Shown: positions 4,846 to 46,900 of the stretch, in pieces
Position numbering within the stretch: the stretch's first letter is position 1
How the letters are laid out: each line of letters begins with the position of its first letter
NCBI GenBank assembly: GCA_040954595.2
Contig: CM082590.2
Location: 5,332,001-5,396,000, forward strand
Source of the DNA: Balanoglossus misakiensis
Lineage: Eukaryota > Animalia > Hemichordata
DNA length: 64,000 nt
Direction: 5' to 3'
Notes under the pieces: generated by a model
Databases searched by the model: none
Told to the model about the DNA's origin: nothing
The model's input: only the letters and a program-made list of their open reading frames with translations
Made by a program: the position numbers and the translations under genes

Positions 4846-4874
4846 AACACACAAGTTGTCAGGCCTACTCTCTT

Positions 4875-12125: not shown

Positions 12126-12126
12126 A

Positions 12127-22969: not shown

Positions 22970-25900
22970 CTGGAAAAAAAGAACACATTCGATAAATCCC
23001 TTCAGTATCTAACACAAGAACAACAGTATACTACACATTGAGGATTCATTTATACATTCTTCGCAGACTAAATATGATGTAGTTTCTTTTTCTGGATTTG
23101 TGTACTGGTGCAATCGTTCTTTTGTCTGAATAAAGAACGCATTCTATGAATCCAGTACAAACACGACAGTTTGTACATACGATACATCAATTCATTTGTT
23201 AACATGTATGATTTAGAGAGCCTTGTTAGACTCTTAAACAGTTACTATTCTTTAATTCACTTTATTCTGTTGTTCTTCTGTAGTTCTCTTTCTGGATAGG
23301 TGGACTAAAAATCTTTCATGCATAATGTGCATGCCCTATGCTCATTCATATCATATTGCTAGATTCTGATTGCCACAGATGTACCGCGACAATTGCTATT
23401 ACTTCTTTACAGGGTGCTGTGATGAACACAGATGTAGTCCCACTTTGTAGGTTTCTGCACTAACATTGTTGCATGTATTAGGTATGAAAATCTAAATTCC
23501 TATATCTTACATGATACATGATGGTATGAGTAGGTTCATATTGCCATACTAATACTGCAGAATTTCTTTCTGTGTGTGGAGATGTGGTGAAATTGTACAG
23601 ATAACATATCAACAGTACTGATATATAAATTGGGAATTTACCTTGGTTGATAGTGATACACGGGAATATGACAGCAATGTCAACAACATTGTCCCATCAT
23701 GGTCATACTATAGGTTCAAAGAAGAATAAACATAGTTTATGAAATACATCAATGTCTGAACCTCTTCTTTTGATAATTATATACTTATATTTTTCATCTG
23801 AGGAAAGATGTGACCAAACCTAGAATAAATGTGTCTAAACATTTTCAAAGCATTACCAATCCCTCAGAAGTGTGTTGACACAAATCGATCATTGCAGTGT
23901 ATGAGTTAAACATCAGAAAATCTGCATGGCCTGCTTTATTCTGCTTCATTCTGTTCACGTGTGATTAATTGTACATTTGCCGTAAACAAAAGTGATATTA
24001 TCGGATAAACAATGAAACATTAACCATAATTCTTTATATTTCATATTGTTTTTATTTTCTGAGACGGGTTGGCGGGACAGACTAAGCATCTTATGGGTTT
24101 CTGTGTCTGAAATGTTGAAACTGATATTTTGATGTGTTATGCATGTAATGAGAAGCGACCGTGCAACTTAAATATACATAATGCATAATTAATTATTATA
24201 ACATGACTGCCTTTGTTTTGCATAGAAACCTGCAGTAGTCTGTCAGCGGTAATTTTATCCAGAGTTGGCTTTTTGAGCTTATTTAATTTCATTCAAGTTC
24301 CCAGCCTGTGAAGAAGCTTGACTCCGACATTAGAACGTCTGTCCTACCAAACACCATCTCCTCAATGTGCGTTTACAAGCAATTGCAAGGATTTGCGGTG
24401 ATGTTCTGTCTTTGACCAAGTGTTTTGATCAAGGATATAACACTACCACCATGTCTGGACTTGATAGATACATACCTTCAACTTTCTTACTGCGAAATCC
24501 AAAGGGGTTTCGCCATCCTAAAATATAAGAAGCCACATAACAGTGTTTATCGCTTGTTTTTTTCTTGTTTGTCTGTCAGATCTACAGAAATGTTTATCTG
24601 GACAGCTTGAAGTCGGTCAGTATGCAAGAGATTACCTTTAATGTTATAATAGAAGATGTATGAATAGAAGGCACAAAAACAAACAGTGCTTATGAATTAT
24701 AAGCAATGTTCGTTATAAACTAGTCTAGCGCTTGCCAAAGCTCGCAAAATATTGTCTGTGCATGAATGCACTGGCAAGTAACATGGCCACGAGAGCGACC
24801 AACGTAATGCCATGTTGCTTCTTGTCACAGTCTGGTTTATGTTTGTTAAAGCTGTAATAAAAGGATCATTCCCCACTGGCCAAAACTGTACACGTGGTTT
24901 AGATGTCTAAAGCTATGTTGTCTACAACTTCACCGCCATTGAATGAAAACAAAACAAGAATCATTTTCACAAAGTCAGCCAGCATGTTGGGGAGCCAGAA
25001 TAATCTTATGAACTCTCACGGCAGATAACCATCCACCTGAAGTACCCGATAATATCAACCGAAAACTGGGTGATAAACGTTGGAATTTCGCGGATGTACG
25101 CGAAAAATTCTGGAATGACACAAAATTCTTGCCTACGGGCGAAACTTAAACAGGAACAGTCAGTTGTGTCCACAATTAAAAAATCCCCCGGACCGCCATA
25201 TTTTAAGCAAATTTCAGGCAAAATGGGTGTACGGTGGTCACAGATTCCACTAAATGACAATAAATCACCAAACGAAACTATGTTTCAACTCTCTTCGGAA
25301 ACACATGGCCGACGACTGTTAATATACGAGAGAATACAACAAATGTAACGGATAGCCTCACACTTCACTGTGTAAAGCGCGCCAGGGATCTACTTCAGCG
25401 ACTACATATAATACTCAGACGTCCATTCTACCTGACTTCACCGCTAGTGGCGCCCTGCAACAGCCAATTTTACTTGGCGTCAGTCACTTGTAAGTGAAGT
25501 AATGCAGTTTTCATCAAGTCTTATTTGTTTGCTATCTTTAGGATTATGATCAACGAACAACTAGTGCGGTCGAACTGTTTTTGGCAAAGTTTCAGGGTAA
25601 CAATTTAATCGCTGTGATTATTTCAAAGAGTTTAGTTAAAACCTGAGTGACGGGTATTGTACGGGCATTGCACATGTAGGGTCATGTTTGGATTGACAAT
25701 GCCATAGGTGCTAATTTGTGTCCGTCTTCGGGACTATAGGCAACGAACATCCAATAAGTCTGAAACACAATATGAGAGTGAGCGAAATTATTTTAAGAAG
25801 TAAAAGTCGCCTGAGTTTGAATTGATCAAGTCTTTGATACTTCAGGGGGGAGTTGACCCTTTCCTGAGTCTGTCTTGATCATGGCAACCTGATACAAAAT

Positions 25901-28900
25901 CTTGTGTGTATCTATAAGGGCATTTCATTAGCTAGCCTTTATCTATCGCTACAAGTCGTACATTAATTTTTAAAAGCATAGCAAGTCTAGAATGTTTTCT
26001 CCGTTCTTCTAAAGTTTTCTATCGTGTAATCTTCAGACAAATCAACGGGGAGAAATCATGAGAGCCAGCTCAGCGAGCTTGAGTGCGAGGTGAGGGCGGA
26101 CTTTATCTGAACCATAAATCATAGCAAAAATTGTAGGCCAATGAAAGGTGTCTTGGGTGAAACCCTCAATAACTGAATTTCATTGCATAGATTACGTGGG
26201 ATTCTCCCTATGTTAGGATTGGAATATGTGACGCTTTCTCTGGAATGTTTTTTAAAAAATAAGCCCTTTTCCGTCTCAACCTTGCCATAACATCTCAAAG
26301 CTCTTTAATTTTTTCTTGTGCTTTTTTGGTTATCTTCTTTATTGGTGAAATGCAGTTCAGGTCTGGTAAACATAGATTTATTAATATTGAAGAGCAGGTA
26401 TAGCAAGAAAGCAGAACTGAATGGTGAAGGTTTGTGGGTTGAAGCATTTATATTTGCAGATTTTGTACAAACGCTTTTACAAGACTTAGTTGTGACGTGT
26501 ACCAGCCTTTATCAAATGTGTTGCACAATCACGACCGCCTGGTGGCACTGTGACCATAGGTTGCCTGTGCAAAATAGGTGATAGACGCCCTTCTCGTCTG
26601 AGGCCATGTTTATTAAATTGGGCATGGAGTAATGAGCGGATGTTTTCGCCGTATCCGGAGGTCTGGTCACGGTTGCGTTGTGATCATTCGTTCCACGCGT
26701 TCGAGTTTTTCCAGCATTTTGGTTTTCTCTATGTTCAGTGTGTCCATTTCCTGTTCCGGTCAGACACTGGAATTCCGCGTTTTCCTTGATTTGTCGATAG
26801 TTTTGTTCGAGATTTGATCTTCTCTGCCGGGGGGGGGGGTGTCAGAAGTGCCCGATCGAGGAAGGGGTGCCACCGTTTTGATTTTGAAAAGAAAACAACT
26901 TGCCTGTATCACACGTAGAAGGTAAACTTGTAAAGTGCGCACATTTGTACGCATCTGTTCCTTCCAAGGAAATCTTTGAGATTTGCTAAAATACTCACTT
27001 CTACTATTGCTTTTTCATGAGATTATACACATGCCCTATATACATTATAATATTGAATGTTTAAACAATCTATAATTAAACAATAGACATTTATATTTAC
27101 AATAATATAAATCTGCTGATCTTGATCTCACATTCAACAAAAACAAACAACACTTCCTGCTCTGACTGATTGATTTCTTTTTTTTAATCTTGTGTAAACA
27201 CTGCATAATTATACAAGACCGGCTGTCATTGTTAAATAGGTTGTAAAGTCTGGGTCGTTGGGAACATGGCAGAGGGATAGACTTTAACTATTTATTTTTA
27301 TTTACCTATGTTGAAAAATGTGTGTTATTGATAATAAAACGTGTCAACTGATGTGTGAGTGCAGAATAGAAATTAGTGTGATTACATTAACTTACTTTAT
27401 CCTGCACATCAACGCTGGCATTGGATTGCAGTAGAAGTTTCACCACGTCACCAGAGCCATTCTGTGCTGCATAGTGTAACGGTGCCCGACCAATCTATGG
27501 GAATACAGCAAAAATGTGTCACTGAAAATCCCTGACTATAAGCGTATAATGGAACACGCAATGTTCCATTAAGCATGCATTGTAAGACACATTCTGTACA
27601 TTCATTTGTGAGATGGCACAACATGTTTGCCGAAACTTTTTTTTTTTGGGGGGGGGGGGGATAAATAAATAGTAGTCCAGTCCCCCATGTAATAGACATG
27701 AATGCATGATGTGGTGATAGGGCAGTGTCCTTTGAGGGAACATTAACATCACAGGTATTATTTTACTTGAGATTTATGATACGCGCATGTGATGTTTTCA
27801 TTTGAAGATATCCTCTGTACAATACCTCAAACTGACAATGATCTAAATATTATAAAAGCCTAGACAGCAGTTTCATTACCCCTTAAAAGAGCATTGAGAA
27901 CGCCAATTATGAATCAAAGGTAAGAAATATGCGGAACCACTGTTGACATTCAAATGCTTATGGTGGACTTCAGCCAGACAACTTGTTTTTAGTCTCGCCA
28001 GCCAGACCTCTCTCTCTGTCATTCGACGGCATAGCCACACGAAGTGCGCCACAAGCGGTGAAGCCACAAGAATCGAGCATTGGAGACAACGTCGCCGTTT
28101 GTGGCGCCCTTCGTGTGCCTGGCCGCGACGTCGACGGATAGCGAGCTCTGGCAGGCGAGTAGTCTTGGTTACCCAGAGCCCTCTGCTTCTTCCGCTGGGC
28201 ACTCCAGAAAGAGGGTCTATGGGGAAATACCATAGACAAATCGCCGGGCAAAGATGGCCGCCTTGAGACAAAAAGCGATGCAGCGAAGCGGTCCAGAAAT
28301 ATCATGCAAGGGGTGGAGGGAACAGCGTTCAACCGTCTCGATGGACTCTTGCACGCTCAAATGACGGATGCAACGCACTGAGTGTGTAATGTGTTGAAAA
28401 CTGCATCTGCTGGCTCTGAACCTTTAGACCAACCAAAGTCATCTAATTAATGCATCGGTACACACAAACATACGACACAACCCAACACAGAACTCAACAC
28501 TCGGCATGAACTGAAAGCAGCAAATGCTCCAGCGAAGCCAGAGTTATGACCGTATGTACATTTATACTCATACACATCTGAATGTCAAGTTTGCATTGGC
28601 TTTATGGCTGCCAAACAGAAAGTTTGTTTCAGGGTTTTGACAAATATCATTGGAGTATGTAAGTGACAGCCGCGCATCAGGAAACTAATTGTATCTCATG
28701 AAACGCAGGGATGGTGTGATTTTCAATATTACCTACAGTCATAAATTGCGACAACATGTGGTGGGAAAGTACTAGAATTTAAAATAAAATTAGACGTGAC
28801 CATAGCAACACGTGGCAAAAGGCAAGCCAAATTCTGACAGGAACATTGTGATCGTACTGGTGAACTTATAGGGCTTCCCAACAGCCAGCAATCTGGACTT

Positions 28901-31900
28901 ATCAACTGAAGACCTAGCTGTGGAAACCTAGCTGTTCCGCCGGGGGGGGGGGAGATGCGGGGAATTAGTATCCCCCCCCCCCGGTGGAACAGCTGCATTT
29001 CCACAGCTACTGAAAATCCAACTCCGAAAAAGTTGGATTTTCAGAAATTTAATTCCACTTTCCTCGTGCAACGGAAGATTCTGAACGCGTTTTGCTTTCA
29101 AAAAATCTACGCTGGACGCCCATTTGTGTAATACGCCCTTTACGAAAACAATAAACTTTACCCGGAAACGCCTACACTAAACAGTATAGAAAACATTTTC
29201 CAATTTCCGAAAAACCTCTTTTTTACATAATTACTGCTGAAAAAGTTAGAAATTTATGAAAATATTCCCCATTCTTTGCCAATTTCTAATGAAAAAATTA
29301 CATAATGGTATTCTTAGTCTCTTTCCTGCAGCTGTACAGCAGGAAAAATGCATTTTGTCATATTTTGGCTTTAAACTAAAATAAAAATTTATCTGTGAAA
29401 AAACTGAGTCTCCTTCAAAGCCATGTACATGACAGTCCTTTTGATTTTTTTCTAATGAAATTTTGTCTCCATGTTTATCATGAGTAATATTTCTATTGAA
29501 AATTTGCAAGTGTGTGAATTGTTTGTAAAATTTCGCCAGAAAAAACAATAGCATCAAAAAGTAAATCTGAAACCCGATATTTATTACAAGAATTGTTAGA
29601 TTAATATCCGTATCACACAAATCCGTTGGATTTCGTATGAATTTTAGGAAATAAGCACTGCTCATTGACAAATCCATATTTTGCGGCTAAAATACTTGGA
29701 AAGAGTCAGTGGCATGTGAGAGCTTGGAAATTTCCAAGTACTGACAAGGGTCAGTGGTCGGAAATTTCCAGACACTCAGGGAATGTGAGAGTCTGGAAAT
29801 TTCCAAGCACTGACAAGGGTCAGTGGTCGGAAATTTCCAGACACTCAGGGAATGTGAGAGCCTGGAAATTTCCAAGCACTGACAAGGGTCAGTGGTCGGA
29901 AATTTCCAGACACTCAGGGAATATGAGAGCCTGGAAATTTCCAAGCAATGACAAGGGTCAGTGGTCGAAAATTTCCAGACACTCAGGGAATGTGAGAGCT
30001 TAGAAATATCCAAGCACTGACAAGGGTCAGTGGTCGGAAATTTCCGGACACTCAGGGAATGTGAGAGCCTGGAAATTTCCAAGCACTGACAAGGGTCAGT
30101 GGTCGGATATTTCCAGACACTTAGGGAATGTGAGAGCTTAGAAATTTCCAAGCACAGACAAGGGTCAGTGGTCGGAAATTTCCAGACACTCAGGGAATGT
30201 GAGAGCCTTGAACTTTCCAAGCACTGACAGGGTCGTGGTAGTCCTCCGTACATGTCTGCGTTCTCCCGGCGTTTAATACACGGCTTCCACCACATCTCTG
30301 CAAGGCTCCATGGACAAAACTGATTCGTCTGAGATCCGGATCCGGACAGCAGCTTTTTGGCCGAGATTGGATTTTATCGGGGGGGAATCTTTCCCCCGTC
30401 TACCCACAAATGACTCCAAATATGATGTAATTAACTTCCGAGCCGCTCGCTTTCTGATTTTCTCTTGTGTTTACCTGTTGAGATCGCCATATTGAATACA
30501 GTGAGGTTATCTCAATGGGTAAACACAAAAGTTTCAGAAAGCGAGCGGTTCGGATGTTAGAAGAAGTCAATCGCAGTTATAACCGGTTAGTAGACAGGGA
30601 AAGGATATTCTCCCGATAAAATCGAATTTCGGCGAAAAGCTCTGGTACGGATCTGGACCGCAGACGCACCAGGTTTGTCTAAGGAGCCTTAGCGTCACAA
30701 TGTTCATGACAGGCTTCGCCTACCAACTCCTCTGAGTTAGCCCATACACTAGTTGTTTATTGGGAATTGGTATTGTTTATCTGACACAATTGTTCTTTCT
30801 ACTCTGTATACAAAGTCACAACTTCACAACTACCAAATGCTATTGTTCTTGAATTATGCAGTGTTACCAAATGTCACAGTTCAAACCACTGTATATAAAG
30901 AAGTATTGGCCATCCCGCCCCTCTCTCTTCATTCCGAACCTATTCCCAAGTGTACGCGGTACATTTGTTGGTGCCGAGACCAGGATGTCGGGCATGGAGA
31001 GAGAGAAGAACAGCAGAAGAGGCCACCGCAGTCAAACGACCAAACTCATCCGTAGGGTTGAAGATATAAATACAGGCGAAGTTCCTCAACAGATCGTTTT
31101 CCTAAAGGCCATAATTTGAAACATGATAGAGAAACTCAAGATTTCCAAGCACTGACCCTGTCAATGCTTGGAAATTTCCAGGCTCTCACATTCCCCGAGT
31201 GACTGGATATTTCCGGCCACTAACCCTGTCAGTGCTTGGAAATTTCTAGGCTCTCACATTCCCTGAGTGTCTGGAAATTTCCGACCACTGACCCTTGTCA
31301 GTGCTTGGAAATTTCTAAGCTCTCACATTCCCTGAGTGTCTGGAAATTTCCGACCACTGACCCTTGTCAGTGCTTGGAAATTTCCAGGCTCTCACATTCC
31401 CTGAGTGTCTGGAAATTTCCGACCACTGACCCTTGTCAGTGCTTGGAAATTTCCAGGCTCTCACATTTCCAAGCACTGACCCTTCTGGAGTGACTAGCAA
31501 TTTTTTGCAAATTGTACTATTAATTGAATTCATAATTTAGTTATTAGTTTTTTTCAATGAAATATTCAAATCCATACAACCTAAAGATGGCTCCTTCATT
31601 ATTTCTATGGAAATTTCACAGTTTATTCTTTTCTTTCTGCACACTCGCAAACATCTTGAAAATAATCATAGAAAAATATCGAAATATATTGTACTGTGAA
31701 CAAAACACTAATTTCCTTGAAAAAAGTTTAAAAAACGGCTACTTTTCGGAAATTGGAAAATGTTTTCTATACTGTTACTAGATGATTTCATGTCTTCAGA
31801 CAAACACAGAGAAATAAACTGTCAGGTTTAATCCCCCTGAAATTTTTTCCTTGCCTTTATGCAAAATACAGAATGATTTTTCAAGACATAGACCGACCGT

Positions 31901-34900
31901 GTTATGGCAAGTGTCCACGGCTGTTTAGCCAACATCGCTAAAGTTATTATAGGCTTATATTGAGCATTTGTGAACAGATAAACAGTTAGGCGTAGGTCAC
32001 ACTATACATGTATAGGGCTCAGTCGATATACTCGTGTCATCAATGGAGCAATTCAAGCGCCTGTGCAATACGTTGCAGTCATCTCTACAACAAGCTGACT
32101 GACTAAAATAATTGGAATCGGACAACAGTGTGATAATTTTTATCAGCGGAATCTAACCGACGTGACAAGCTCAATGCAATGCGGGCCGGGTTAACGCAGA
32201 TTTGAGTCTTAGCAAGGCTGGCTTCTCTAGCTTGAGTGGTCGTCCCGTCGAGCGCTCTGCATGGATGATACACGTCCTATTATACCAGCGCAATCCCCAC
32301 TGCAGTCGCCTCGACCTACTAGGATTTTCAATTGCCATCATGCCCAGTCTACGCTACAGTGGGCGGCTTCCATCATTCAAAAAAAAATAATTCTAAAAAT
32401 AGAATTTCAGGGATTTGTGGGCAATTTTTTTCCAACAAACAATGCACACATGCGCAGCGTGACAAGAGCTTCCGTTTGAAGTTTTATAACCAGTTTATAT
32501 TTTAATGCGGGGTGGCAGGCTATATATTGTTTTATCAATACTGGAATAGAGGATTTCTTTCATGATTTAATCAGGAAGAAGGGCTCTCATTTGTTGGTCC
32601 TAAATTACGATACACACTAATATTTACATATAAATCAACTGATCTTGATTTCACATTCAACACAAACAAACAAAACTTCTTGCTCATAATGATTGATTTC
32701 TCTTTTTAAATCATGACAAAATGTGCTTTTAAAGAAAAAATACATTGAAATTTTTTTTTTTTTACAGAATCCATAATTAACAAGACAGGCTGTCATAGGT
32801 AAAAATAGGTTGTAACGTCTGGGTTGTTGGGAATAAGGTAGAGGGATAGACGTTAATCATTTATTTTTATTTACCTTTGTTCAAAAATGTGTGTTATTGA
32901 TAATAAAACGTGTCAACTGATGTATGAGTGCAGAATAGAATTGGTGTGATTACAGTAACTTACAATGGACTGCACATTGATGCTGGCATTGGATTGCAGT
33001 AGAAGTCTCACCACGTCACCATGTCCTTTCCATGCTGCATAGTGTAACGGTGCCCAACAATCCTGTGGGAATACAACAAAAATGTGTCACGGATAATCCC
33101 TGACTATAACCGTCTAAGGGAACACACAGTATTTCATTAAACATGCAATGTAACACACATTCTGAAACATTCATTTTGAGATGGCATGTTTTGCCGAAAC
33201 TTTTTTAGGTCCCATTGGTATAGGCATATATACCATGGGACCTTATGAGATCGGTTGCGTCTGTATGTATGTATGGATGTATGTATGGATGTATGGATGG
33301 ATGGATGTATGTCTGTATGTCCGTCCACATCAAAAACTTGAAAACCGCTGCGCGTATCACCTCAATATTTGGTGTGTAGGTGCAGGCTGGGCTGTAGATG
33401 GGAGTTTGTCCAAACGAAATTGCCAGGCCCAAAAATATGCAAATTAGCTGGAAAAATGTGAAATTTATCAAAACTCTGAAAGTCAACAACTACCCGTCAG
33501 ATTGCTTTAAAAATTGGTATGCATGTACCATATGTCAACCTCACATCGACCTGTAAGTGTTAAGTTAATATCATCGATGTTTTATTTTTTTATGAATTTT
33601 TTAGTCTTTTTATTAAATTTATACCTTTACTTATACCTCTATGGTTAAGCTATGTCCACATCTTATTGTGGAATTCTGGTCCGTGCAATAGTCCTGTACA
33701 GTGACTGTCTATTGGTCAGTGAGCACAATGGGGCCAAAATAAAAGGCACAATTTTGGGCTCACCTGTAACACCTGCTTAACACATTAATTATGTGCATAC
33801 CTAATTCCGGGCTAACTAATAGGGCTAGAGGTTTCGTTCTTGTGGGACATGGACCAGTATAGGGTCAAAATTTCTTGCCCAAATTTTGGGTGACCTCAGG
33901 TGACCTTTGACCTTCTTTCCTATATCTCGGCATCCAGAGCAGGTACAGACTTGGCGTTTGGAGGGTTGGGACTAAAATTGAAAAGCCAAAATATTGGTCA
34001 CCTGTGACACCTGCATATCTCATTTATTATGTGTATACCTAATTCCAGGCTAACCAATAGGGCTAGGTTTGGTTTTTGTTGAACATAGACCAGTATAAGG
34101 TCAAAATTTCTTGCCCAAATTTTGCATGACCTCAGGTGACCTTTGACCTACTTTATCATATCTTGGCATCCAGAGCAGGTACAGACTTGGCGTTTGGAGG
34201 GTTGGGACTAAAATTGAAAAGCCAAAATTGGGGGTCACCTGTGACACCTGCATATCTCATTTATTATGTGCATACCTAATTCCAGGCTAACCAATAGGGC
34301 TATAGGTTTGGTTTTTGTTGAACCTGGACCAGTATAGGGTCAAAATTTCTTGCCCAAATTTTGCATGACCTCAGGTGACCTTTGTACTTTATCATATCTT
34401 GGCATCCAGAGCAGGTACAGACTTTGCGTTTGGAGGGTTGGGACTAAAATTGAAAAGCCAAAATTGGGGGTCACCTGTGACACCTGCATATCTCATTAAT
34501 TATGTGCATACCTAATTCCAGGCTAACCAATAGGGCTATAGGTTTGGTTTTTGTTGAACCTGGACCAGTATAGGGTCAAAATTTCTTGCCCAAATTTTGC
34601 ATGACCTCAGGTGACCTTTGACCTACTTTATCATATATTGGCATCCAGAGCAGGTACAGACTTGGCGTTTGGAGGGTTGGGACTAAAATTGAAAAGCCAA
34701 AATTGGGGGTCATCTGTGACACCTGTATATCTCATTAATTATGTGCATACATGTACCTAATTCCAGGCTAACCAATAGGGCTATAGGTTTGGTTTTTGTT
34801 GAACCTGGACCAGTATAGGGTCAAAATTTCTTGCCCAAATTTTGCATGACCTCAGGTGACCTTTGTACTTTATCATATCTTGGCATCCAGAGCAGGTACA

Positions 34901-37900
34901 GACTTGGCGTTTGGAGGGTTGGGATTAAAATTGAAAAGCCAAAATTGGGGGTCACCTGTGACACCTGCATATCTCATTAATTATGTGCATACATAATTCC
35001 AGGCTAACCAATAGGGCTATAGGTTTGGTTTTTGTTGAACCTGGACCAGTATAAGGTCAACATTTCTTGCCCAAATTTTGCATGACCTCAGGTGACCTTT
35101 GACCTACTTTATCATATCTTGGCATCCAGAGCAGGTACAGACTTGGCGTTTGGAGGGTTGGGAATAAAATTGAAAAGCCAAAATTGGGGGTCACCTGTGA
35201 CACCTGTATATCTCATTAATTATGTGCATACAAATGTACCTAATTCCAGGCTAACCAATTGGACTATAGGTTTGGTTTTTGTTGAACCTGGACCAGTATA
35301 GGGTCAAAATTTCTTGCCCAAATTTTGCATAACCTCAGGTGACCTTTGACCTACTTTTCCATATCTTGGCATCCAGAGCAGATATGCTTATTGCTATGTT
35401 GCTATGTGCTATGTTGGCTTGGGCCCGATATTGTTGCTTGCAGATCTGCTTGCAATGTCACCTGTAATTTTTATTCTGGTGTGTCACTGTTTCCGCATAA
35501 TCCTCAAATGGGACCACAGTGTCCTTGACGCTATTTTTTTCGGGTGGGGGGATAAATTAATAGTAGGATACATCCCAGTCCCCAATGTAATGGACATGAA
35601 CGCATGTTGTTGTGATAGGCCAGTGTCCTTTGAGGGTACAATAACATCACAGGAATTTTTTGACTTGAGATTTATGATACGCGCGTGTGTTGTTATAATT
35701 TGAAGACACCCTCTGTACAATACCTCTAACTGACAATGATCTAAATATTATAAAAGCCTAGACAGCAGTCTCATTACCCCTTAAGAGCATTGGAATTAGC
35801 CAATCAAAGAACGGCAATTATGAATGAAAGGTAAGAAATATGCGGAACCACTATTGACATTCAAATGATTATGGTGGACTTCAGCCAGACAGCTTTTTTA
35901 GTCTCGCAAGCCAGACCTCTCTCTCTGTCATTTGACAGCATAGCCACACGAAGTGCGCCACGAGCAGCGAGGCCGGGAGAATTGAGCGTCAAAGACGGCC
36001 TCACCGCTTGTGGCGAACTTCGTGTGCCTATGCGCGGCGTCGACGGATAGCGAGGTCTGGCCTGCGAGAAGAACATTTCTTTAGACTGAGTCAGTTTTGT
36101 AATGGTTCAGATTACGGTTTATGAAGGAATCAAACTTTGTATCAGGGTTAAACGTTTACTTTCAATTTTAACAACATGTGCTGAGTTGTCTGCTATCATC
36201 GTTATTACGTATCAGAAAAATAGTGCAATTACGTCAATATGTATTTTTGTTGTACATTCGGTTAATCCAATTTCTCTCGCTCTGTTGACGCATAAGCAAT
36301 ATGTGCAGCGTGTGAAGACGGAGCTGGATGCGTCCTCGTTTTTCCCTCAGAATTTCCGCTTACGGTCTAGTATTGAGCCTTACGTGTACAGTAGTACCTC
36401 TATGAATGTGCCAAGAATCGCATGTATCTACGTAAATTCCACTCTTGACAATGCTAGAGAAGAAATCTGCTGTTTCTGCCCGTACGACTGTCGGTCATCA
36501 GAGCTTGCCCGCCGCGGCCATTGTTGAAATCGGAATCTATTGTTTCAGAGGTCATTACACAATCGACGGTGCCATGTCACAGCGCTGTGAAGACTGCAAT
36601 GCTGTATCACAACGAGTATCCCTGTGTCAGGGAGACTTAATGCTGTGCCCCAAGTGTAACAAGAAAAGATTTGGTACAAGTGTGAGTAGCAGTAGTTCTG
36701 ATAATACCGATGCAAGACCCACTACGGATGCCGCCTCTGAAGATGGTCCAGTCATCTGTGAATTGGCATGCTTTGTCGTGAATAAACTGAGCTCAGGTAT
36801 GACACGTGCTTCGATGGAAAAAGTTATAAGTAGACGATGCCAAGAATATTGTTTTTGAAGTGGCTGGCGATCGTGGTCCGTCCCGTCGTAAAACTACCCT
36901 CACAATTCGAGATGTGGTTGACTGTATAGCTGATCTGCCCGTTGATACCCAGAAACGGTTTGTTGCTCAACAGCTGCATCGTCTTCCTCCGATAGATATT
37001 GACTATGTAGACTATATCAGTCTTCTGAAAATGGTTCGTGATATGCGTGAAAAACTGGACTCGGTTAGTGCCAAGCTTGAAGCCAAAGAGGTAATTATGG
37101 ATTCGGTCCGTTCCGATCATTTGAATGGCAGTGCAGCAGCTGTTACCCAGTGTAATCCAGGTGGAGCAAATATGTCCAGAAAACCAATGAGTTCGCCAAC
37201 AAAACTGGCACCCAACACGGAGGTTACGGCACTCTCTGATGGTGATATTTCTGATCAAAATGTCTCAGAGGTTGGTTCAGGTGCAGAGCAAACATGGTCA
37301 TTCGTAGTAAAAAAGAAAAAGAAGGCGACTGCAAGTGTTCAGCATCCCAGGAAACCTAAACAAATCGTTCAGGGATCGGGTAATTCTACGCATCACTTTA
37401 CCGTTGCAGAGAAGCTACCGAAATTGCGAAGTGTTTTTGTGAGCCGTCTTACTCCAGATACAAGCATTGATCAGGTCAAGACTTTTATTAATGACAAGTG
37501 TGGTCCTTCAACATTTCAAGATGGCGTCAAATTGAAAACACGCTTTGACACATATTCATCGTTCAGAATCGATGTTAATGACAGTTGCATTGAAAATGTC
37601 CTCTGTCCTGAATTGTGGCCAACAGGAGTTCTTGTGAAACCGTATTATCTCTCGAAGTCGGAGTTGATCGCAATGTCTAAGAAAGGTTCGTCACAAGTAG
37701 GAATTTAAGAAACTCATAATGTATTCTATTAACATTGCCAGTTACAACTTAAGAGGTTTAAACTCCTCCCGTGGTTCTCTTGACGTTTTGCTTAATTCTT
37801 GTGATATTATCTTGGTTCAAGAGCATTGGCTTGATAAGGAAAAATTATCTGTTCTCTGTGCTTTGCATAATGAGTTTACCTCAACAGGTGTGAGTGCCAT

Positions 37901-40900
37901 TGACAGTTCACACGGTGTTCTCACCGGCAGACCCTACGGGGGTGTGGGTATTCTTTGGCGCAAAAATCTTAGTGGTATCTCTCCTATCCTATTTGATGGG
38001 GAAAGCCGTGTTGTAGGTATTCGTATTAAAATGTCAGATAAGCCAGATGTTGTAATTTTTAATGTGTATCTGCCAACTGCAAACTCTGACTGTGATGAAT
38101 ATCAGCGGATCTTAGGCTTGTTACAAGTTACAATCAATGATTTAGATACATGCTGTTGTCTTATTTCTGGCGATTTTAATGCAGACCCAACGAGAAATCA
38201 ACATGAGTTCACCCTTTTAGATAATTTTGTGAAAGATAATAAGTTCGTCTTTTCAGGCATTGAACGTCTGCCCCCTGAAACGTTTACATATTTAAGTGAT
38301 TCGTGTTCAGCCAGAAGTTGGCTTGATCACATTATATGCTCATCATCTTCTGATACTATAGTTGATTCTGTTAAGGTAAACTATGATATCATTTCATCTG
38401 ATCACTTCCCTGTAATGTTCACTTTGAAGACTCATTTGCTACCAAGGATTAGTATTTCGTCACCAGCTGAAATACATAGTCCTAGTTGGAACAAAGCGTC
38501 CTCTTGTCAACTTGAAAACTATAAAGTGTATTGTGATAGACTTTTATCTGAAGTTTATATTCCTGTTGAAGCACTGGCATGTACTGATCCAGACTGCTGT
38601 ATACATTCAGAGTCGATTGACACTTTTTACAATGATATTATTTCTGTACTATTAACCGCAGCGGATAGGACTCTTCCTAAAATTACACACTCAAATAAGC
38701 ATGCAATTCCTGGTTGGAATGCTCTAGTCAAAGATTATTATGACAAAGCTCGCACTGATTTTTTAATCTGGAAGGATAATGGCTCCCCTAAATTTGGTCC
38801 CTTCTTTGAACTTATGCGCAGGTCCAGAGCTCAATTTAAAAGGCAGTTAGCTAATTGTAAGAAGGCAGAAAAAGAAATGCGCGCTATAGCCCTGGCTGTA
38901 AAATTAAAGAAAGACTCCAAGGTGTACTGGAAAGATGTCAGTAAACGGAAAGGTAGATCAATATCTCCATCATCTATTGATGGTCATTCGGGTGATGTTG
39001 AAGTGGTTAATATGTGGAAAAACCATTACGAGAATATTTTGACAAAAACTGGAAAAGAATCCGCACCTGATTTTATGAACATTGAGTACTGTGATGACAT
39101 GATTGTACACCATGAAGAAATTTGTGAATTAATTAAGAACCTTAAGACAGGTGCATCGTCGGGTATCGACATGGTGTCACCTGAGCACCTGAAGTATGCG
39201 CCATACAGAGTCAGTGTTCTACTTTCCCTCTGTTTCACGGCTATGTTAATTCATGGCATTGTTCCCAAACAATTGATGACTACAGCTTTGGTTCCCATTC
39301 CAAAAAACCCAGGTGGTGACATTTATGACAAATCTAACTACCGTCATGTTGCTGTTGCAACAACGATATCTAAATTGTTAGAGAGAGTTTGGTTAAATCG
39401 CTGCATGGATTGTCTAACGACTAGCGAGCACCAGTTTGGATTTAAACCAGGCCATGGTACCGATATGTCAATTTTTGTTCTTAAAGAAATTTTGAATTAT
39501 TACAAGCGTTGTAACACTCCTGTTTTTGTCACTTTTATGGATGCATCCAAAGCTTTTGATTATGTTCGTCACGATATTCTCTTTGTAAAACTTTTGGCGA
39601 GGGGTGTCAATCCTTATCTCATTAAGATTTTGTCATACATGTATAGGCACCAAGATTTTGTGGTGAGATGGGATCGGTTGTTATCTAAACCTTTTCCCTC
39701 AAAGAATGGGGTTAAACAGGGGGGAATTACGTCACCAATATTTTTCACAGTCTACTTGGATGATATCAGCAAAAATCTTTCCGGTCTTCCGTATGGCTGC
39801 CTTGTAGGGGACTATAAGGTTAATCATTTAATTTACGCCGATGATTTGGTTATTATATCTACTGGAGCCTATGGCCAGCAGATGCTTGTTGATACTTGTG
39901 GTCATTATGGCAGCATTAACTCAATTTTCTTCAATGAGAAAAAAACAGTCTGTATGTTAATTCAGCCAAGTATGCGCAGGCTCAGACACGTTCCAATTTA
40001 TCTGAACGGCCGATAACTGAATTATGTCAACGTTTATAAATATCTTGGTCACCTTATCACTTGTGACCTTAGGGATAATGAGGACATTCTAGCTCAAACG
40101 CGACAATTTTATGTTCGCGGTAATGCGATTATTCGTGATTTTAAATTTGCGTCTATCTCTGTTAAATGTCATTTGTTTTCTGTATTTTGTGATATCCCGT
40201 ATTGCTCTTACTTATGGAGTGCTTTTTCTGTGTGTATTTTTAATGCAGTTAGGAGAGCTTACTCACAGGTTTTCCGTAAATTGTCTGGTTTTAAACATTC
40301 TTTTATTCAGAGCAACAGTGCGATGTTTGTTAATCTTTCTATTTTAACTTTTGATGAAATACTCCGGAAAAAATTATTCAGCTTTTTAAGCAGACTCCAC
40401 CTCTCAAGTAATCCACTTGTAGCCAGTGTTTTATCACTATCAAATAGTGGACTTTGGAAGGTTTGGAGTAGACGATTGTTTTGATGTTTTTTATGGTGTT
40501 TTGTTTTGCTATGGATTATTTTATAATCTGAAATAAAGATGAAATAAATAAATAAATAATAAGCCTCACAAAAATTTCGGTTTGTTTTATTCTCTTTTTT
40601 TCTAGTAAGTTTGAGACAATGTCTCTGTTATTCTTTGGTGAACCAGTGGTCTTCTTCTTGGTGCTTGCCTATTGTTTATTTAGCAATTAGAGATGTCACT
40701 AATTCAAATTGCGAATGCAATACAAAGAATAGAACATATATTTCCATGGATAACGACCTAGTTATGTTTAATCTTTTCCATTGTGTTTGGAATATATTGA
40801 ATGTTTCAACAACAGAGTTAAACCATGTTAGAGGAATTATCAGTTTGGACTTCATTGCTGAAAACCTAGTCTTTCTCAAGCAGTATAAATTATGCAGCAC

Positions 40901-43900
40901 CTGATATGTGGGCGCAGAAGTCTTGATGGGTGGAGCGTTTGACGGATCTCAGCAAATCTGTCATTCTATCAGAGACTGGATTTCTTTTTGGTTGCACGTT
41001 TTTTTTATATTAACCCACCGATGTACCTCAGCTTTCAAGTCGCCCAAAATAGTTGGGTTTGATATGTGAAGTCGTTGTGTCCGTGTCAATTGAAATATCC
41101 AGAAATATAATGCAAGGGGTGGAGTGAACAGCGTTCAGCCGTTTCGATGGACTCTTGCACGCTCAAATGACGGACGCAACGCACCGAGTGTGTAATGTGT
41201 TGAAAACTGCATCTGCTGGCTCTGAACCTTTAGCCCAACCAAAGTCATCTAATTAATGCATCGTACACACAAACATACGACACAACCCAACACAGAACTC
41301 AGCACTCGGCATGAACTGAAAGCAGCAAATGCTTCAGCGAAGCCAGAGTTATGACTGTTATGTACATGTATACGCAAACACATCTGAATGTCAAGTTTGC
41401 ATTGGCTTTATGGCTGCTAACCAGAAAGTTTGTTTCAGGATTTTGACAAATATCATTGGAGTAGGCAAGTGACAGGCGCGCATCAGGAAACAAATAATAT
41501 CTCATGAAACGCGGGGACAGTGGGATTTTCATTATTACCTACACAGTCATCAACTTCGACAACATGTGGTGGGAAAGTATTTAAAATAAAATTAGATATG
41601 ACCACAGCAACACGTGGCAAAAGGCAAGCCAAATTCTAACAGGAACGTTGCGATCGTACTGTTGAACCTGTAGGGCTTCCCAACAACAAGCAATCTGGAC
41701 TTATCAACTGAAGACATAGTTGTGGAAACGCAGCTGTGCCGCCGGGGGGGGGGGGGAGATAAGGGGAATTTGTATACCCCCCCCCCCCCGGTGGAACAGC
41801 TGCATTTCCACAGCTACTGAAGATCCAACTCCAAAAAGTTGGATTTTCAGAAATTTAATTCCACTTTCCTCATGCAACGGAAGATTCGGAACGTGTTTTG
41901 CTTTCAAAAAATCTACGCTGGACGCCCATTTGTGTAATACGCCTTTTACGGTACCAATAAACTTTACCCGGAAACGCCTACACTAGATGATTTCATGTCT
42001 TCGTACAAACACAGAGAAATAAACTGCCTGGTTTAATCCCCCTGAAATTTTTCCTTGCCTCAATGCAAAGTAAAGAATGATTTTTCAAGACATCGACTGA
42101 CCGCGTTATGGCAAGTGTCCACGGCTGTTTAGCCAACATCGTGAAACTTATTATAGGCTTATATTGAGCATTTGTGAACAGATAAACAGTTAGGCGTAGG
42201 TCACACTATACATGAATAGGGCTTAGTCGATATACTCGTGTCATCAATGGCGCGATTCAAGCGCCTGTACCACCTGTTGCAGTCCTGTCTACAACAAGCT
42301 GATTGACTGTATACTTGGAATCGGACAACAATGTGATAAGGTTTATTAGCGGAATCTAACCGACGTGCCAAGCTCAATGCAATGCAGGACCGGGTTAACA
42401 CAGATTTGAGTCGTAGCAAGGCTGGCTTCTCTAGCTTGAGTGGTCATCGCGTTGAGCGCTCTGCATGGATGATACACGTCCTACTATACCAGCGCAATCT
42501 CCACTGCAGTCGCCACGACCTTCTAGGATCTTCAGTTGCTGTCATGCCCAGTCTACGCTACAGTGGGCTGTTTTGTTCATTCAAAAATAATTCTAAAAAT
42601 AGAATTTCAGGGATTTGTGGGCAATTTTTTCCAACAAACAATGCACACAAGCGCAGCGTGACGAGATCTTCCGTTTGAAGTTTTATAACCAGTTTATATA
42701 ATTTAATGTGGGGTGGCAGGCTATATGTTCATTGATCATTACTGGAATAGAGGATTTCATTCATGTTTTTTTTCAGTAGAAGGGGCTCTTATTTATTTTA
42801 CCTATATTACAATACACATTTATATTTACAATAATATAAATCTGCTGATCTTGATCTCACATTCATCACAATAAAGAACACTTTTTGCTCATTCAATAAA
42901 AAAACATTACTTCTTGCTCTGAATGATTGATTTCTTTTTTAAAATCATGCAGCAACAATCCATAATTAACGAGACAGGCTGCCATTATTGAAATAGGTTA
43001 TAAAGTCTGGGTCGTTGGGAATAAGGCAGAGGAATAGTCGTAACTATTTTTTTTATTTACCTATGTTAAAAAATATGCGTTAATAAAACGTGTCAATTGA
43101 TGTTTGAGTGTAGAATAGAATGAGTGTCATTACAGTCACTTACATTATCCTTCACATCGATGCTGGCATTGGATTGCAGTAGAAGTCCAACCACGCCACC
43201 ATGGCCATACCGTGCTGCATTGTGTAACGGTGCCTGACCATACTGTGGGAATACAACAAAAATGTGTCACTGAAAATCGCTGACTATAATCGTCTAAGGG
43301 AACACACAGTATTTTTTTTGGGTGGGGGGATAAATTAATAGAATGATACATCCCAGTCCCCCACGCAATGGACATGAATGCATGTTGTTGTGATAGGGCA
43401 GTGTCCTTTGAGGGTACATTAACCTCACATGTATTATTTTACTTGAGATTTATGATACACGCGTGTGATGTTTTCATTTGAAGATACCCTCTGTACAATA
43501 CCTCAAACTGACAATGATCTAAATATTATAAAAGCCTAGACAGCAGTTTCATTACCCCTTAAAAGAGCTTTTGCATCAGCCAATCAAAGAACAGCAATTA
43601 TGAATCACAGGTAAGAAATATGCGGACCCACTATTGACATTCAAATGATTATGGTGGATTTCAGCCAGACAGCTTTGTAGTCTCGCCAGCCAGACCTCTC
43701 TCTCTCTGTCATTCGACGGCATAGCCACACGAAGTGCGCCACGAGTGGAGAAGCCACAAGAATCAAGCATCGGAGACAACGTCGCCGCTTGTGGCGCCCT
43801 TCGTGTGCCTGGCCGCGACGTCGACGGATAGCGAGGTCTGTCCATTGAGAATGACGTTTCTTTAGAGTCAGTTTCATAACGGTAGCTACACAATGACGGT

Positions 43901-46900
43901 TTATGAAAGAATCCCACTTTGTAGATTTTCGGTTGAAAAGTCATCCCAAGTTTGGGGATTTTTTCTGTTGAAAAGTGACCCTTCTGGGTGGCACATACCC
44001 GTACACCTTCCTATGGGAGTACCCCCCCCGGCCTGTTGTGCAGGATACATGGCACCCCTACAATTTACAATTATTTATTTTCAGAGCTTTATTTCGCTAG
44101 TTCGCTTCGCCGTTGTTACTGACAGCTATTACACTACAGTTTGTTTAAATATAAAATAAATGTCTCATCGTGCATGTAGCAATAATTCATGGTTAGGTCC
44201 CTAACTTTCCGGTCAAAAAGTTAACTATTGGTAGATTATTTATCGAAAAATCGAATTATGAATTTCGATATGAACACCCTGATCCCAACCTCTCGAATTG
44301 CTCGACGTTTTAATAAAATATTGCTTTATAGTGGTATGATATTCAAAAGTGAATTGGTTGGTCTCAAAAGAGATAAGAATTTAACTTGGCCGCAGGTATA
44401 GCCAGGGTCCAAAAACTCTCCCTCAAACTCTTTCATACTCTTCATAATCCTATTATGTGTGTCAGTGTATTGCAGTAACACTTGTTTCGTGATTGACATC
44501 CCGAAGGTCGTCAACACTACATAATTTAAGTACAGTGTCACCTTTTTAGCCGTTCGGGCTATTGGTGAGTGAGCATGTAAAGACACTTACCTCATTCTTA
44601 GCATTGACGTCAGCTCCATGGTCGATCAACAATTGTGCCGCTTCCAGTTTATTTTTTTCGGCCGCTACATGCAATGCAGTGTATCCAGACTGAAATTGAC
44701 AAATTCATTTGAATTAAAATGAACACAAGGTATGTTCCAATGTTGGACTTGTAAGGTTACATGGCTAAAATTTCACTGGAATCGATGTGTAACTATAAGT
44801 GTTTACTTATATTATGAGTTAAATGTGTGTAGCATCTATAGTTGTTTCAGACCAAAACACTCTATTGTTTCAGAGAACATTTATAACATGTCCTATAGAT
44901 TTTTCTAACAAGTGAAACTCTATAAAATTCTAATATAATGTAGCGCACTATACATGTTTATGCACACTCATAGGTGCAACAGGTCTTAATATCATTTCAT
45001 AAATTACATTGATATGTTCAAATTTTCAATCACACCAACTACTCTAACAGATAAACATGGCAGACTTGATACACCAGACACATACAATCCCTCGTGTTTC
45101 TCTGTTGATGTAAGTTGAAGTCTGGCCCGCTATGAACCCAACATTGGCATGGGACATCTTGAAATTTTCAATCTCACCAAATACTCTAACAGATAAACAT
45201 GGCGGACGTGATACACCCGACACACACAATCCCCTGTTTCTCTGTTGATGTAAGTTAATATTTAGGTATAGCCTGCTATGAACCCAACGTTGGTACGTAC
45301 GGTACATCAATGTTATAATCATTTAATGTTGCTAGGAAACATCAGAAAAAGAATTGTCTAAACCAGTCTGGACATTTCTCTCAAATTTGTCTTTTTTAAA
45401 AAAGCGTTTGTAGTATCCATTGAATGGAAGTGAAATTACCTATGTTTTTTTCTTCAATTTTAAACTCTAAACGTTCTGGTTCACCGAATTTAACCAAAAA
45501 CACAAAAAGAAAATTGTGGTCGCGCAAATAAGTGTGAAAGTGGAGTTCACTAAACAAATTGAGTTCGCCCTTCTAATAAACATAAGAAAGTTGCTTGTTG
45601 AATGTATGTGACCAATCTGATTAAAATCAGATGTAGAGTTAGGCGTTGTCTTTACCTATGGTGGTCATTTTGGCTGTTCAGTTCTCTGTCTTGGCTGTTC
45701 TCGGGTGGACGGTCCCTTTCCGAACAGTAAAGCCAAGAATCAGCCAGAGTAAAGAGACTAACTAGACCTAACTCTACACCTAACTCTACATCCTATTTAA
45801 CCAGATAGTTTAGTGACAATATGAAACGGTCTCTAAGCTTATAATTGCACGTAATGCATGGGGCACACGCAATCACTAGCTTCCTCCACAAATAAAGATT
45901 TCGTCCAAATGGCAAGTCTCCAGCCTGCAATGACACAGATTCCACATATTCTTCGGGTGTCCGCAAATGAAACATTTCAGCTTGGCCTTGTCACGACTCT
46001 GATATTCTCCCTGTATGCCCCATAGACAAGCACTGTGTCCTTACTCTGGCATTGTTCTATGTCCATTGAGGTACAATAACACGTTCATCTCCACACATGT
46101 GTGTTTACTCAATCAAGTAATTTATACAGCTAAGATATCCATCGAAGAGACAGAGGAAATAAATATTACAATCAATCGACAGCTGCCCCACCTCAAAGAT
46201 TCAAATCACGCCTGAAGAATACACTTGTAATACAAACACCACAGACTAAAGAAATCCGCACTTTTTGTTTATAAGGGCAATCAACGGCAATCTTTTCCAT
46301 GACCATATTTACCTGAATTCCAGATTGACTTACGACGTGGGATTTTTAATCTCTATGTTGTGTCGCTTTTGGGGTTTTAATTTTTTTGTAAACACTTTCA
46401 TTTATTATGACATTTGCATCCATCTAGAATTGTCAACAACCGCGCCACAGACTGTTACTGGTCACAATATACAGATACTTGGACATATTATCCAACACTA
46501 TGTTCTTATTCGTTTCAGTTTCAAATTTTCTTTCTAACCTCAAATTGCTATAAGAGAAACAAAGGAGGAAACAAGCTTCATTTTCTCACACAATTTTGCT
46601 ATTTCAAATGCATTAAGCTGGTATATCAAACACAGGAAAGGTTTGTGTTCATCAATAAAGTCAAGGTAAAATCTTTTGCCGCTTCAGATTCTATACCTGT
46701 GTGACTTGGTTGTACGTGTGAAATGTTGAGTGAGGCAGTGCAAATACTTACCCAGACATCGTATTCACCCTTTGCATTTACATCGTACCCATCAGCTATC
46801 AACGATTGAATCCTTGCAACATCACCATTCCAAGCGGCAGTAATGAGATCCTATAACATTCAGTGAAACATACAATTGTTATTTTTTAAATATTCCGTTA

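What the first reader, a model, noticed from the sequence alone, without database searches (positions are those of the whole stretch)
27396..43242. Hypervariable, tandemly duplicated ankyrin cassette exons in a ROCO gene: a natural DARPin-like diversifying receptor
Seen: three 99-nt phase-0 exons with intact splice sites encode YGQAPLHNAARYGHGGVVGLLLQSNASIDVKDN, DCWAPLHYAAWKGHGDVVRLLLQSNASINVQSI and IGRAPLHYAAQNGSGDVVKLLLQSNASVDVQDK. Framework codons (GCA CCG TTA CAC; GCA GCA; CTT CTA CTG CAA TCC AAT GCC AGC) are identical even at third positions. By hand count the pairs differ at 16-19 nt and 11-12 aa, and copy 1 vs copy 3 has about 14 nonsynonymous vs 2 synonymous changes. Positions 1 (Y/D/I), 3 (Q/W/R), 11-12 (RY/WK/QN), 19 (G/R/K) and 33 (N/I/K) differ in all three copies. 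Established: apart from position 19, these are the beta-turn and helix-1 positions that form the ankyrin binding groove and are randomised in DARPin libraries (DxxGxTPLHxAAxxG). Diversifying repeat arrays are known in fungal NLRs and in the LRR exons of brown-algal ROCOs. Inference: positive selection on a ligand-sensing array of a probable innate-immune GTPase, with copy number changing by unequal crossover. Because the cassettes are phase 0, they could also be skipped combinatorially. One-repeat-per-exon structure alone is common in ankyrin genes; the distinctive feature is the site-specific diversification.
Basis: partly seen in the sequence, partly recalled or inferred. Interest (0 to 1): 0.9.

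Follow-up and report, generated by a model that had tools for sequence, protein, structure and literature searches.

The report
Fast-diversifying ankyrin exons in ROCO gene
A signalling-GTPase gene of an acorn-worm-like animal carries three recently copied mini-exons, each coding one ankyrin binding module, whose predicted contact residues change several times faster than the neighbouring introns, which likely makes it a rapidly diversifying, possibly immune, sensor of a type so far described in seaweeds and fungi.

Summary
Observation confirmed. The three 99-nt exons (43144-43242, 32964-33062, 27396-27494, minus strand) lie in an intact 9-exon, 1281-aa ankyrin-LRR-Roc-COR gene without a kinase, whose nearest kin are hemichordate proteins. 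They arose by triplication of a ~2.9-kb unit. Exon-only dN/dS (1.4-2.5) is not significant. The unchanged framework codons are what youth alone predicts, and ordinary ankyrins vary most at the same five positions. Calibrated on the copies' own introns, however, the six library-randomised codons evolve at omega about 7 (2.4 under pessimistic assumptions), with 12 changes against 3-5 expected. An independent sample shows 19 further variant letters; 11 of the 12 seen in two or more runs fall in codons 8, 11 and 12. One run that behaves like RNA holds in-frame splices of the preceding exon to a cassette, cassette to cassette, and cassettes to other genes' exons. Not shown: immune role, ligand, exon skipping, copy-number polymorphism. 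It works like brown-algal ROCO LRR exons and fungal NLR ankyrin arrays; I found no animal ankyrin-ROCO case in ten literature searches. This scan earlier noted an ankyrin-cassette ROCO gene in a mussel (e1-9532795). New variant of a known kind.

The parts
49285..49314 (-). first coding exon (ATG, 10 aa), predicted
   Evidence: ATG plus GT donor, phase 0; start not confirmed by RNA
46752..46850 (-). exon 2, 33 aa, divergent ankyrin (N-cap-like)
   Evidence: AG/GT, phase 0; no Pfam hit, weak tblastn likeness to exon 3
44591..44689 (-). exon 3, single-copy ankyrin repeat
   Evidence: Pfam Ank 4e-11; its 3' end (27 of 28 letters alike) is joined to a cassette start in run X3
43144..43242 (-). ankyrin cassette exon A
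32964..33062 (-). ankyrin cassette exon B
27396..27494 (-). ankyrin cassette exon C
24476..24517 (-). exon 7, first half of the C-cap repeat (14 aa)
   Evidence: AG/GT, phase 0; matches the same region of P0002 by eye
23642..23707 (-). exon 8, second helix of the C-cap (22 aa), predicted
   Evidence: only open phase-0 AG/GT candidate found in 22970-24475
19757..22969 (-). last exon, 1070 aa: beta-rich/LRR region, Roc GTPase, COR, Cys/His-rich and helical C-terminal region; no kinase
41098..43923 (-). duplication unit A (upstream intron + exon A + downstream intron), 2826 bp
   Evidence: self-BLAST
28292..36141 (-). duplication unit B, 2928 bp once two later insertions are removed
27080..28150 (-). 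duplication unit C (3'-truncated)
36830..40484 (+). LINE-type retrotransposon ORFs inserted between units A and B
   Evidence: Pfam RVT_1 5.6e-29, Exo_endo_phos 7e-14; ORFs
29180..31776 (.). non-autonomous DNA element in unit B: 34-bp perfect terminal inverted repeats, ACTA target duplication; unit A has the empty site
33207..35531 (.). insertion upstream of exon B holding a 236-bp tandem array

Best explanation
This is an intact ankyrin-LRR-Roc-COR gene with three tandemly duplicated one-repeat exons whose predicted binding-face codons change faster than the neighbouring introns, likely because diversifying selection keeps retuning a ligand-sensing surface that would switch the GTPase, most probably in defence against pathogens. 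Steps: (1) shown: a ~2.9-kb exon-plus-intron unit was triplicated, and since every exon is phase 0, adding or losing a unit keeps the frame; unequal crossover as the route is inferred. (2) Shown for these three copies and echoed in a second sample: amino-acid change piles up at library positions 2, 3, 5, 10, 13, 14 and 33. (3) Shown in a related sample: exons of this cassette family are spliced in series and to the preceding ankyrin exon. (4) Inferred: N-cap, exon 3, cassettes and C-cap fold into one DARPin-like array whose concave face binds a changing partner. (5) Inferred by analogy with other ROCO proteins: binding alters the Roc-COR nucleotide and dimer cycle and signals through the uncharacterised C-terminal region. 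(6) Inferred: the changing partner is a pathogen or non-self molecule.
For: Gene model with 8 of 8 introns GT-AG and phase 0, 1281 aa open. Intron tree length 0.184 from 785 three-way columns; omega of six library codons 7.5 (95% 3.9-14.3, p 6e-7), 2.35 (p 0.018) with CpG x10 and tree x1.5; above 1 in 6 of 6 settings. Fully relaxed simulations: 12 changes observed in either six-codon set against means of 2.9-5.0; reached by at most 2 of 700 runs per setting; six three-state residues against 1.1-2.2, P 0-0.019, a statistic that names no positions. CpG columns are not more variable than other dinucleotides in these introns (0.37 vs 0.27-0.37). Other sample: 16 of 28 variant-letter rows in codons 8, 11, 12; 11 of 19 letters absent from the window's copies, and 11 of the 12 such letters seen in two or more runs. 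X3 joints. Library positions 2, 3, 5, 10, 13, 14 from PMC3308923 passages. Relatives swap N-terminal modules (1 to many ankyrins, DED domains, a Rho-type GTPase) on the same core. Precedents: PMC3341825, PMC11378527, PMC4986451.
Against: Only three full copies, in one haplotype. Exon-only dN/dS 1.4-2.5 is not significant (Fisher p 0.17-0.44). The unsupervised M1a/M2a-like test ranges from p 0.0009 to 0.18 and is not significant in 2 of 6 settings. The other 27 codons give omega 0.74-1.09, so no net purifying selection is detectable on them, and total exon change is only marginally above neutral (P 0.009-0.32). The same five positions are the most variable in 407 ordinary repeats. The second sample's variants are unphased contigs, mix alleles with paralogues, and cover only about codons 7-24. 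Splice joints rest on single contigs of depth 3.5-10.7 in a run listed as 'DNA?'. No ligand, expression pattern or effector is known.
Confidence: 0.62

Rival explanations
1. Recent tandem duplication followed by relaxed constraint: surface residues drift neutrally and only look DARPin-like because those positions are tolerant in every ankyrin.
For: Exon-only tests not significant; identical positions top the entropy list of ordinary repeats; omega near 1 on the other 27 codons; mixture test not significant in 2 of 6 settings.
Against: Relaxation caps the rate at the intron rate, but the six codons run 2.4-7.5 times above it and fully relaxed simulations almost never reach 12 changes. New letters in the second sample avoid most codons, third positions included, and cluster in three.
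Confidence: 0.12
2. The variation is imported, not selected: short gene-conversion tracts or exon exchange with older paralogous cassettes elsewhere in the genome bring in divergent codons.
For: Cassette-family exons join at least two other, dissimilar downstream exons in X3, so a wider pool exists; which copy is closest changes along the unit, though only at p 0.076.
Against: Tracts from older donors should carry synonymous changes and neighbouring codons; synonymous divergence (0.08-0.15) equals the intron level (0.07-0.17), and codons 9-10 between the hot codons show no variant row. Exchange may still act together with selection.
Confidence: 0.1
3. Selection is real, but the partner is not a pathogen: self/non-self (allorecognition) signals, gamete or symbiont molecules, or an endogenous selfish element drive the change.
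For: The sequence tests show a changing binding surface only. Fungal repeat-diversifying NLRs act in allorecognition (abstract lines of PMC12222747 and PMC13449251).
Against: Cytosolic repeat-plus-NTPase architecture with DED-fused kin and expansion in marine invertebrates fits pathogen sensing at least as well; no test here separates the two.
Confidence: 0.14
4. A targeted mutation or somatic recombination process diversifies the cassettes within individuals.
For: Many cassette variants in one sample (90 contigs in X1); proposed for Ectocarpus (PMC3341825 abstract).
Against: No inverted or silent cassettes in the window; a germ-line multigene family explains the contig count; variation follows codon function, not a visible sequence motif.
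Confidence: 0.02

Closest known systems
Brown-algal (Ectocarpus) ROCO genes with one-LRR-per-exon arrays (PMC3341825, PMC11378527)
   Same: Roc-COR GTPase; one repeat per exon; exon duplication; diversifying selection on the repeat; candidate immune receptor without functional proof.
   Different: Here the cassette is a 33-aa ankyrin, not a 24-aa LRR; the LRRs sit unshuffled in the last exon; three copies rather than about ten; no inverted or silent intronic copies in the window; animal host.
Fungal NLRs with highly conserved ANK/TPR/WD repeats (PMC4986451)
   Same: Young ankyrin repeats with positively selected sites on the inner helix and beta-hairpin face.
   Different: Those are STAND NTPases with C-terminal repeats; here the switch is Roc-COR, the repeats are N-terminal and each is its own exon within a duplicated intron unit. 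Repeat-number polymorphism is shown there, untested here.
Kinase-less ANK-LRR-Roc-COR proteins of marine invertebrates (Ptychodera P0002/P0004, Glandiceps P0003, Saccoglossus P0005/P0132, Hydractinia P0134, Tubulanus P0138, Actinia cluster of P0148, Branchiostoma P0158)
   Same: Same core and C-terminal region; 40-53% identity to the hemichordate proteins; one hemichordate clade, SH-aLRT 100 in a quick tree.
   Different: Uncharacterised. Their ankyrin repeats are old (best internal identity up to 55% in P0005, 39% in P0138) against 64-67% here; N-terminal modules differ from gene to gene.
LRRK1/LRRK2, DAPK1, MFHAS1 (vertebrate ROCO proteins)
   Same: ANK-LRR-Roc-COR order as in LRRK2; best PDB sequence hit is LRRK2, E 4e-19 over residues 165-378.
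   Different: No kinase or WD40 domain after COR; vertebrate ankyrin regions are not known to me to be diversifying arrays (recalled).
DARPins (engineered)
   Same: Cassette aligns without gaps to DARPin internal repeats; N-cap, internal repeats, C-cap layout; variable positions coincide.
   Different: Natural and germ-line encoded; binding has not been shown.

Membership tests
ROCO family | Roc GTPase directly followed by COR | tested here: met
   Pfam Roc 256-377 and COR-A 513-666 of P0001; COR-B hit in 9 of 28 aligned relatives, not in P0001 itself
ROCO family | intact GTP-binding motifs | tested here: met
   P-loop, DxxG and G4-like motifs present in P0001 and conserved in 5 of 5 aligned proteins; motif names recalled; activity not assayed
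LRRK/Roco kinases | kinase domain after COR | tested here: not met
   no kinase hit among 11 Pfam families on P0001; the last 270 aa have no Pfam hit and fold as a Cys/His-rich beta part plus long helices
Ectocarpus-type exon-shuffled ROCO | one repeat per symmetric exon | tested here: met
   five 99-nt phase-0 ankyrin exons; repeat type is ankyrin, not LRR
Ectocarpus-type exon-shuffled ROCO | diversifying selection on repeat surface | tested here: met
   with the caveats given
Ectocarpus-type exon-shuffled ROCO | inverted or inactivated repeat exons in introns | tested here: not met
   blastn and tblastn of the window find only the three cassettes
Ectocarpus-type exon-shuffled ROCO | exchange of repeat exons between genes | tested here: inconclusive
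   cassette-family exons joined to two other downstream exons in single low-depth X3 contigs; no genome available
Ectocarpus-type exon-shuffled ROCO | alternative splicing of repeat exons | tested here: inconclusive
   serial inclusion seen once; no skipping joint listed; no long reads
Fungal HIC-repeat NLR | STAND (NACHT/NB-ARC) NTPase | tested here: not met
   Roc-COR instead
Fungal HIC-repeat NLR | repeat-number polymorphism between individuals | not testable with these tools
   contigs of X1/X2 are too short to span the array
Dscam-type mutually exclusive exon cluster | only one cassette of the cluster per mRNA | tested here: not met
   one X3 contig (depth 10.7) joins two cassettes in frame; single contig, related sample

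The most novel reading that the evidence does not exclude
Acorn worms keep a genome-wide pool of exchangeable ankyrin cassette exons, shared by several ROCO and other ankyrin genes and reassorted by recombination and combinatorial splicing, so that each animal carries its own intracellular library of DARPin-like pathogen sensors: an animal counterpart of the algal ROCO system, perhaps evolved in parallel in mussels.
Probability: 0.22. Interest if true: 0.9.

Novelty: new variant of a known kind. Interest (0 to 1): 0.68.

Why it matters
How invertebrate deuterostomes build diverse intracellular receptors without adaptive immunity is open; known cases centre on TLR, NLR and SRCR expansions. A kinase-less ROCO GTPase with exon-encoded, positively selected ankyrin modules would add a new receptor class in animals, give a first handle on a family of uncharacterised marine-invertebrate ROCO proteins, and show natural selection choosing the positions that protein engineers randomise. 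It is directly testable by population resequencing of one locus and by long-read RNA sequencing.

Tried and rejected
No genome is held for the window, so paralogues could not be collected. No RNA holder was listed by the run search; X3 is listed as 'DNA?' and is read as RNA only from its joints and exon-restricted cover. The cassette profile search returned generic ankyrin proteins (175 of 328 candidates, best 120 listed), no close cassette relatives; I used them as a control. The search with the C-terminal 210 aa found 1 protein. The full last-exon model from 5 sequences was poor (pLDDT 50.8) and was not used. The C-terminal model (pLDDT 79.7) gave no Foldseek match at E<=0.001 and only generic helical hairpins, Z<=7.0, among 48,161 chains; the Atlas gave one lead at 0.77 to COR proteins; so no effector is identified, which does not show a new fold. 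No Rfam hit in the window. CpG decay as the cause of hot codons 3 and 11 was considered and does not remove the excess. 'Framework codons conserved at third positions' was rejected as evidence. Depth on the cassette core in X1 (about 14,000 summed, against about 700-3,400 on the last exon) was not used as a copy number. The careful tree did not finish; the quick tree is quoted. The spliced protein could not be folded, so mapping to the concave face rests on register with DARPins and on papers. Look-ups of earlier findings by sequence, place and a second word set were empty.
Full report
Observation. A six-frame motif scan and self-BLAST of the window find three closely related ankyrin exons on the minus strand: A 43144-43242, B 32964-33062, C 27396-27494. 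Each is 99 nt, flanked by AG and GTAAG, phase 0, and codes the quoted peptide. A-B, A-C and B-C differ at 18, 16 and 19 nt and 12, 11 and 11 aa; A-C has 14 nonsynonymous and 2 synonymous differences; six residues (1, 3, 11, 12, 19, 33) differ in all three. No further intact, broken or inverted copy is in the window.

The gene. Nine exons from 49314 to 19757 give an open frame of 1281 aa with 8 of 8 introns GT-AG and phase 0: a 10-aa start exon, a cap-like ankyrin, a single-copy ankyrin (exon 3), cassettes A, B, C, two short C-cap exons and a 3213-nt last exon. The last exon codes a few LRRs, Roc (E 2.7e-15) and COR-A (E 6.7e-15), and no kinase. Of 7,996 candidates scored, 10 passed E 1e-20; the four full-length ones are hemichordate proteins at 40-53% identity. 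An exhaustive search extends the family to proteins that include Hydractinia, Actinia, Tubulanus and Branchiostoma records; 5 of the 20 clusters I looked up carried a name. In a quick tree of 29 Roc-COR cores the protein falls in a six-member hemichordate clade (SH-aLRT 100), sister to two Ptychodera paralogues. The host is therefore most likely an acorn worm (inference). Relatives carry different N-terminal modules on the same core: one to many ankyrins, DED domains plus ankyrins (P0132), or a Rho/Ras-type GTPase (P0003, P0144). The C-terminal 270 aa fold confidently (pLDDT 79.7) but match no known effector.

How the copies arose. The exon sits in a unit of upstream intron, exon and downstream intron, 2826 bp for A and 2928 bp for B after removing two insertions; C keeps the first 1.1 kb. 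The long introns are due to later insertions: a LINE between A and B, a 2.6-kb element with 34-bp terminal inverted repeats and an ACTA duplication whose empty site survives in unit A, and a 2.3-kb insert with 236-bp repeats. Intron blocks differ at 6.5-13% between units. Which copy is most distinct shifts along the unit, but only at p 0.076, so gene conversion is possible, not shown.

Is it selection? Nei-Gojobori dN/dS is 1.65, 2.53 and 1.44, Fisher p 0.34, 0.17, 0.44. Seventeen invariant codons match the neutral expectation of 14.8-19.5. The co-duplicated introns give a neutral clock: 785 three-way columns, tree length 0.184. Exon position n equals library position n+2 (gap-free alignment to DARPin repeats). 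With that clock the six classically randomised codons (library 2, 3, 5, 13, 14, 33; list recalled, partly confirmed by PMC3308923 passages) have omega 7.5 (95% 3.9-14.3); it stays above 1 in 6 of 6 settings, the worst being 2.35, p 0.018, with tenfold CpG mutability and a 1.5-fold longer tree. Adding position 10 gives 6.6 to 2.35. The other 27 codons give 0.74-1.09. A mixture test naming no sites gives p 0.0009, 0.033, 0.005, 0.11, 0.015 and 0.18 across the six settings. Simulation with no constraint except against stops (700 runs in each of six settings) gives 2.9-5.0 changes in six codons against 12 observed, both for the classic set (at most 2 of 700 runs reach it) and for the set printed in PMC3308923 (0 of 700 in each setting); six three-state residues against 1.1-2.2 (P 0-0.019); total changes 27 against 16.6-24.6 (P 0.009-0.32). 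CpG columns in these introns are no more variable than other dinucleotides picked the same way. So the excess is real and confined to the predicted binding face, on three sequences.

Independent sample. Three contig sets of one sample hold the gene. X1 and X2 cover introns and exons and differ from the window at fixed sites, for example 5 of 411, 3 of 230 and 6 of 247 letters in the last exon, so they are another individual, population or sibling species. Laid on exon A at 80% likeness, 90, 36 and 6 contigs matched. The 28 variant-letter rows lie between codons 7 and 24; I infer that the ends were blind, as differences that the window's own copies show there are not listed. Sixteen of 28 rows are in codons 8, 11 and 12 (library 10, 13, 14), with all four bases at the first position of codons 8 and 12. 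Nineteen letters occur in none of the window's copies; 11 of them are in those three codons, and 11 of the 12 seen in two or more runs. These rows are unphased, not independent events, and mix alleles with paralogues, so the binomial p values (6e-5, 3e-8) are only indicative. Loose ends, read by hand, add new residue pairs at 11-12 and a new 31-33 ending followed by a GT donor in X1 and X2.

Splicing. X3 covers the last exon and the cassette bin but hardly the unique introns, and holds joints that X1 and X2 do not list: a cassette start joined exactly to the end of exon 3 (27 of 28 letters match 44591-44618; depth 9.4); a cassette end joined in frame to another cassette start (depth 10.7); and cassette ends joined to a different C-cap-like exon (depth 3.5) and to a different ankyrin exon (depth 5.2), both decoded by hand. 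I read X3 as RNA although it is listed as 'DNA?'. Its two readable cassettes have Y/G/N and F/G/R at codons 8/11/12, unlike A (N/R/Y), B (Y/W/K) or C (Y/Q/N), while exon 3 is almost unchanged. This shows that cassette-family exons are used in series, argues against strict mutual exclusion, and suggests that the family is shared by more than one gene. It does not show skipping, nor a transcript from cassette C to the Roc exon.

Mechanism. Best reading (0.62): a cytosolic sensor in which the ankyrin array is the variable binding head and Roc-COR the switch; duplication of phase-0 units changes array length, and selection retunes the concave face against a changing, probably microbial, partner. 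Duplication, rate excess and splicing are shown; fold, binding, switch coupling and immune role are inferred. Rivals: relaxed constraint (0.12), import by conversion (0.10), non-pathogen partner (0.14), somatic diversification (0.02).

Known systems. Ectocarpus ROCO genes have one LRR per exon, exon shuffling and diversifying selection (PMC3341825: abstract, sections 15 and 25; PMC11378527: abstract and passages). Fungal NLR ankyrin repeats show selected sites on the inner helix and hairpin (PMC4986451 passages). DARPins bind through randomised positions on the concave face (PMC8229355 passages). Aplysia has TIR-ROCO fusions (PMC9334734 passages); PMC8195603 passages discuss ankyrins in marine-invertebrate immune expansions but not this family. 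Ten full-text searches listed no paper on diversifying ankyrin exons in an animal ROCO gene; the library lacks most subscription papers, and I read no supplements.

Verdict. Real, a ROCO family member, not an LRRK-type kinase, working like the algal and fungal diversifying repeat sensors with a new module and host. New variant of a known kind; interest 0.68.

Noticed in passing
window 36830-40484 (+): LINE with a 292-aa ORF1 and an endonuclease/reverse-transcriptase ORF2 of 771 aa, interrupted by one in-frame stop before a further 155 aa, followed by an (AAAT)n tail; lies antisense in the intron between cassettes A and B.
   Followed up: partly
window 29180-31776: 2597-bp non-autonomous element with 34-bp perfect terminal inverted repeats, ACTA target duplication and two internal 69-bp tandem arrays in opposite orientation; the empty site is preserved in unit A.
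   Followed up: partly
window 33741-35381: 6.8 copies of a 236-bp repeat inside a 2.3-kb insertion upstream of exon B.
   Followed up: no
window 51467-63216: About five degenerate copies (65-92% alike) of a non-coding unit of 0.7-2 kb upstream of the gene; no Rfam match, no long ORF. The region is prone to tandem duplication beyond the exons.
   Followed up: partly
window 10644-12165 (-): Four short frames with motifs that recall a tyrosine-recombinase (DIRS-like) retroelement remnant (motifs recalled); no Pfam hit.
   Followed up: partly
window 4570-4987: Telomere-like (AACCCT)n runs next to a short frame that recalls the end of a LINE reverse transcriptase (recalled; no Pfam hit).
   Followed up: partly
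window 22624-22959, run X3: Contigs of depth about 40 match only the start of the last exon and then diverge: a further expressed paralogue; X1/X2 also hold a low-depth copy of the last exon about 86% alike at 20448-20741.
   Followed up: no
P0003 (Glandiceps) and P0144: Relatives with a Rho/Ras-type small GTPase domain fused in front of the LRR-Roc-COR core, possibly an integrated decoy (inference); P0132 has DED and fibronectin-III domains in front of the ankyrin.
   Followed up: partly
P0001 residues 800-1069 (window 19760-20569, -): Conserved C-terminal region with invariant Cys/His residues and a long helical hairpin, shared across the invertebrate family, with no Pfam or clear structural match; candidate output domain.
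   Followed up: partly
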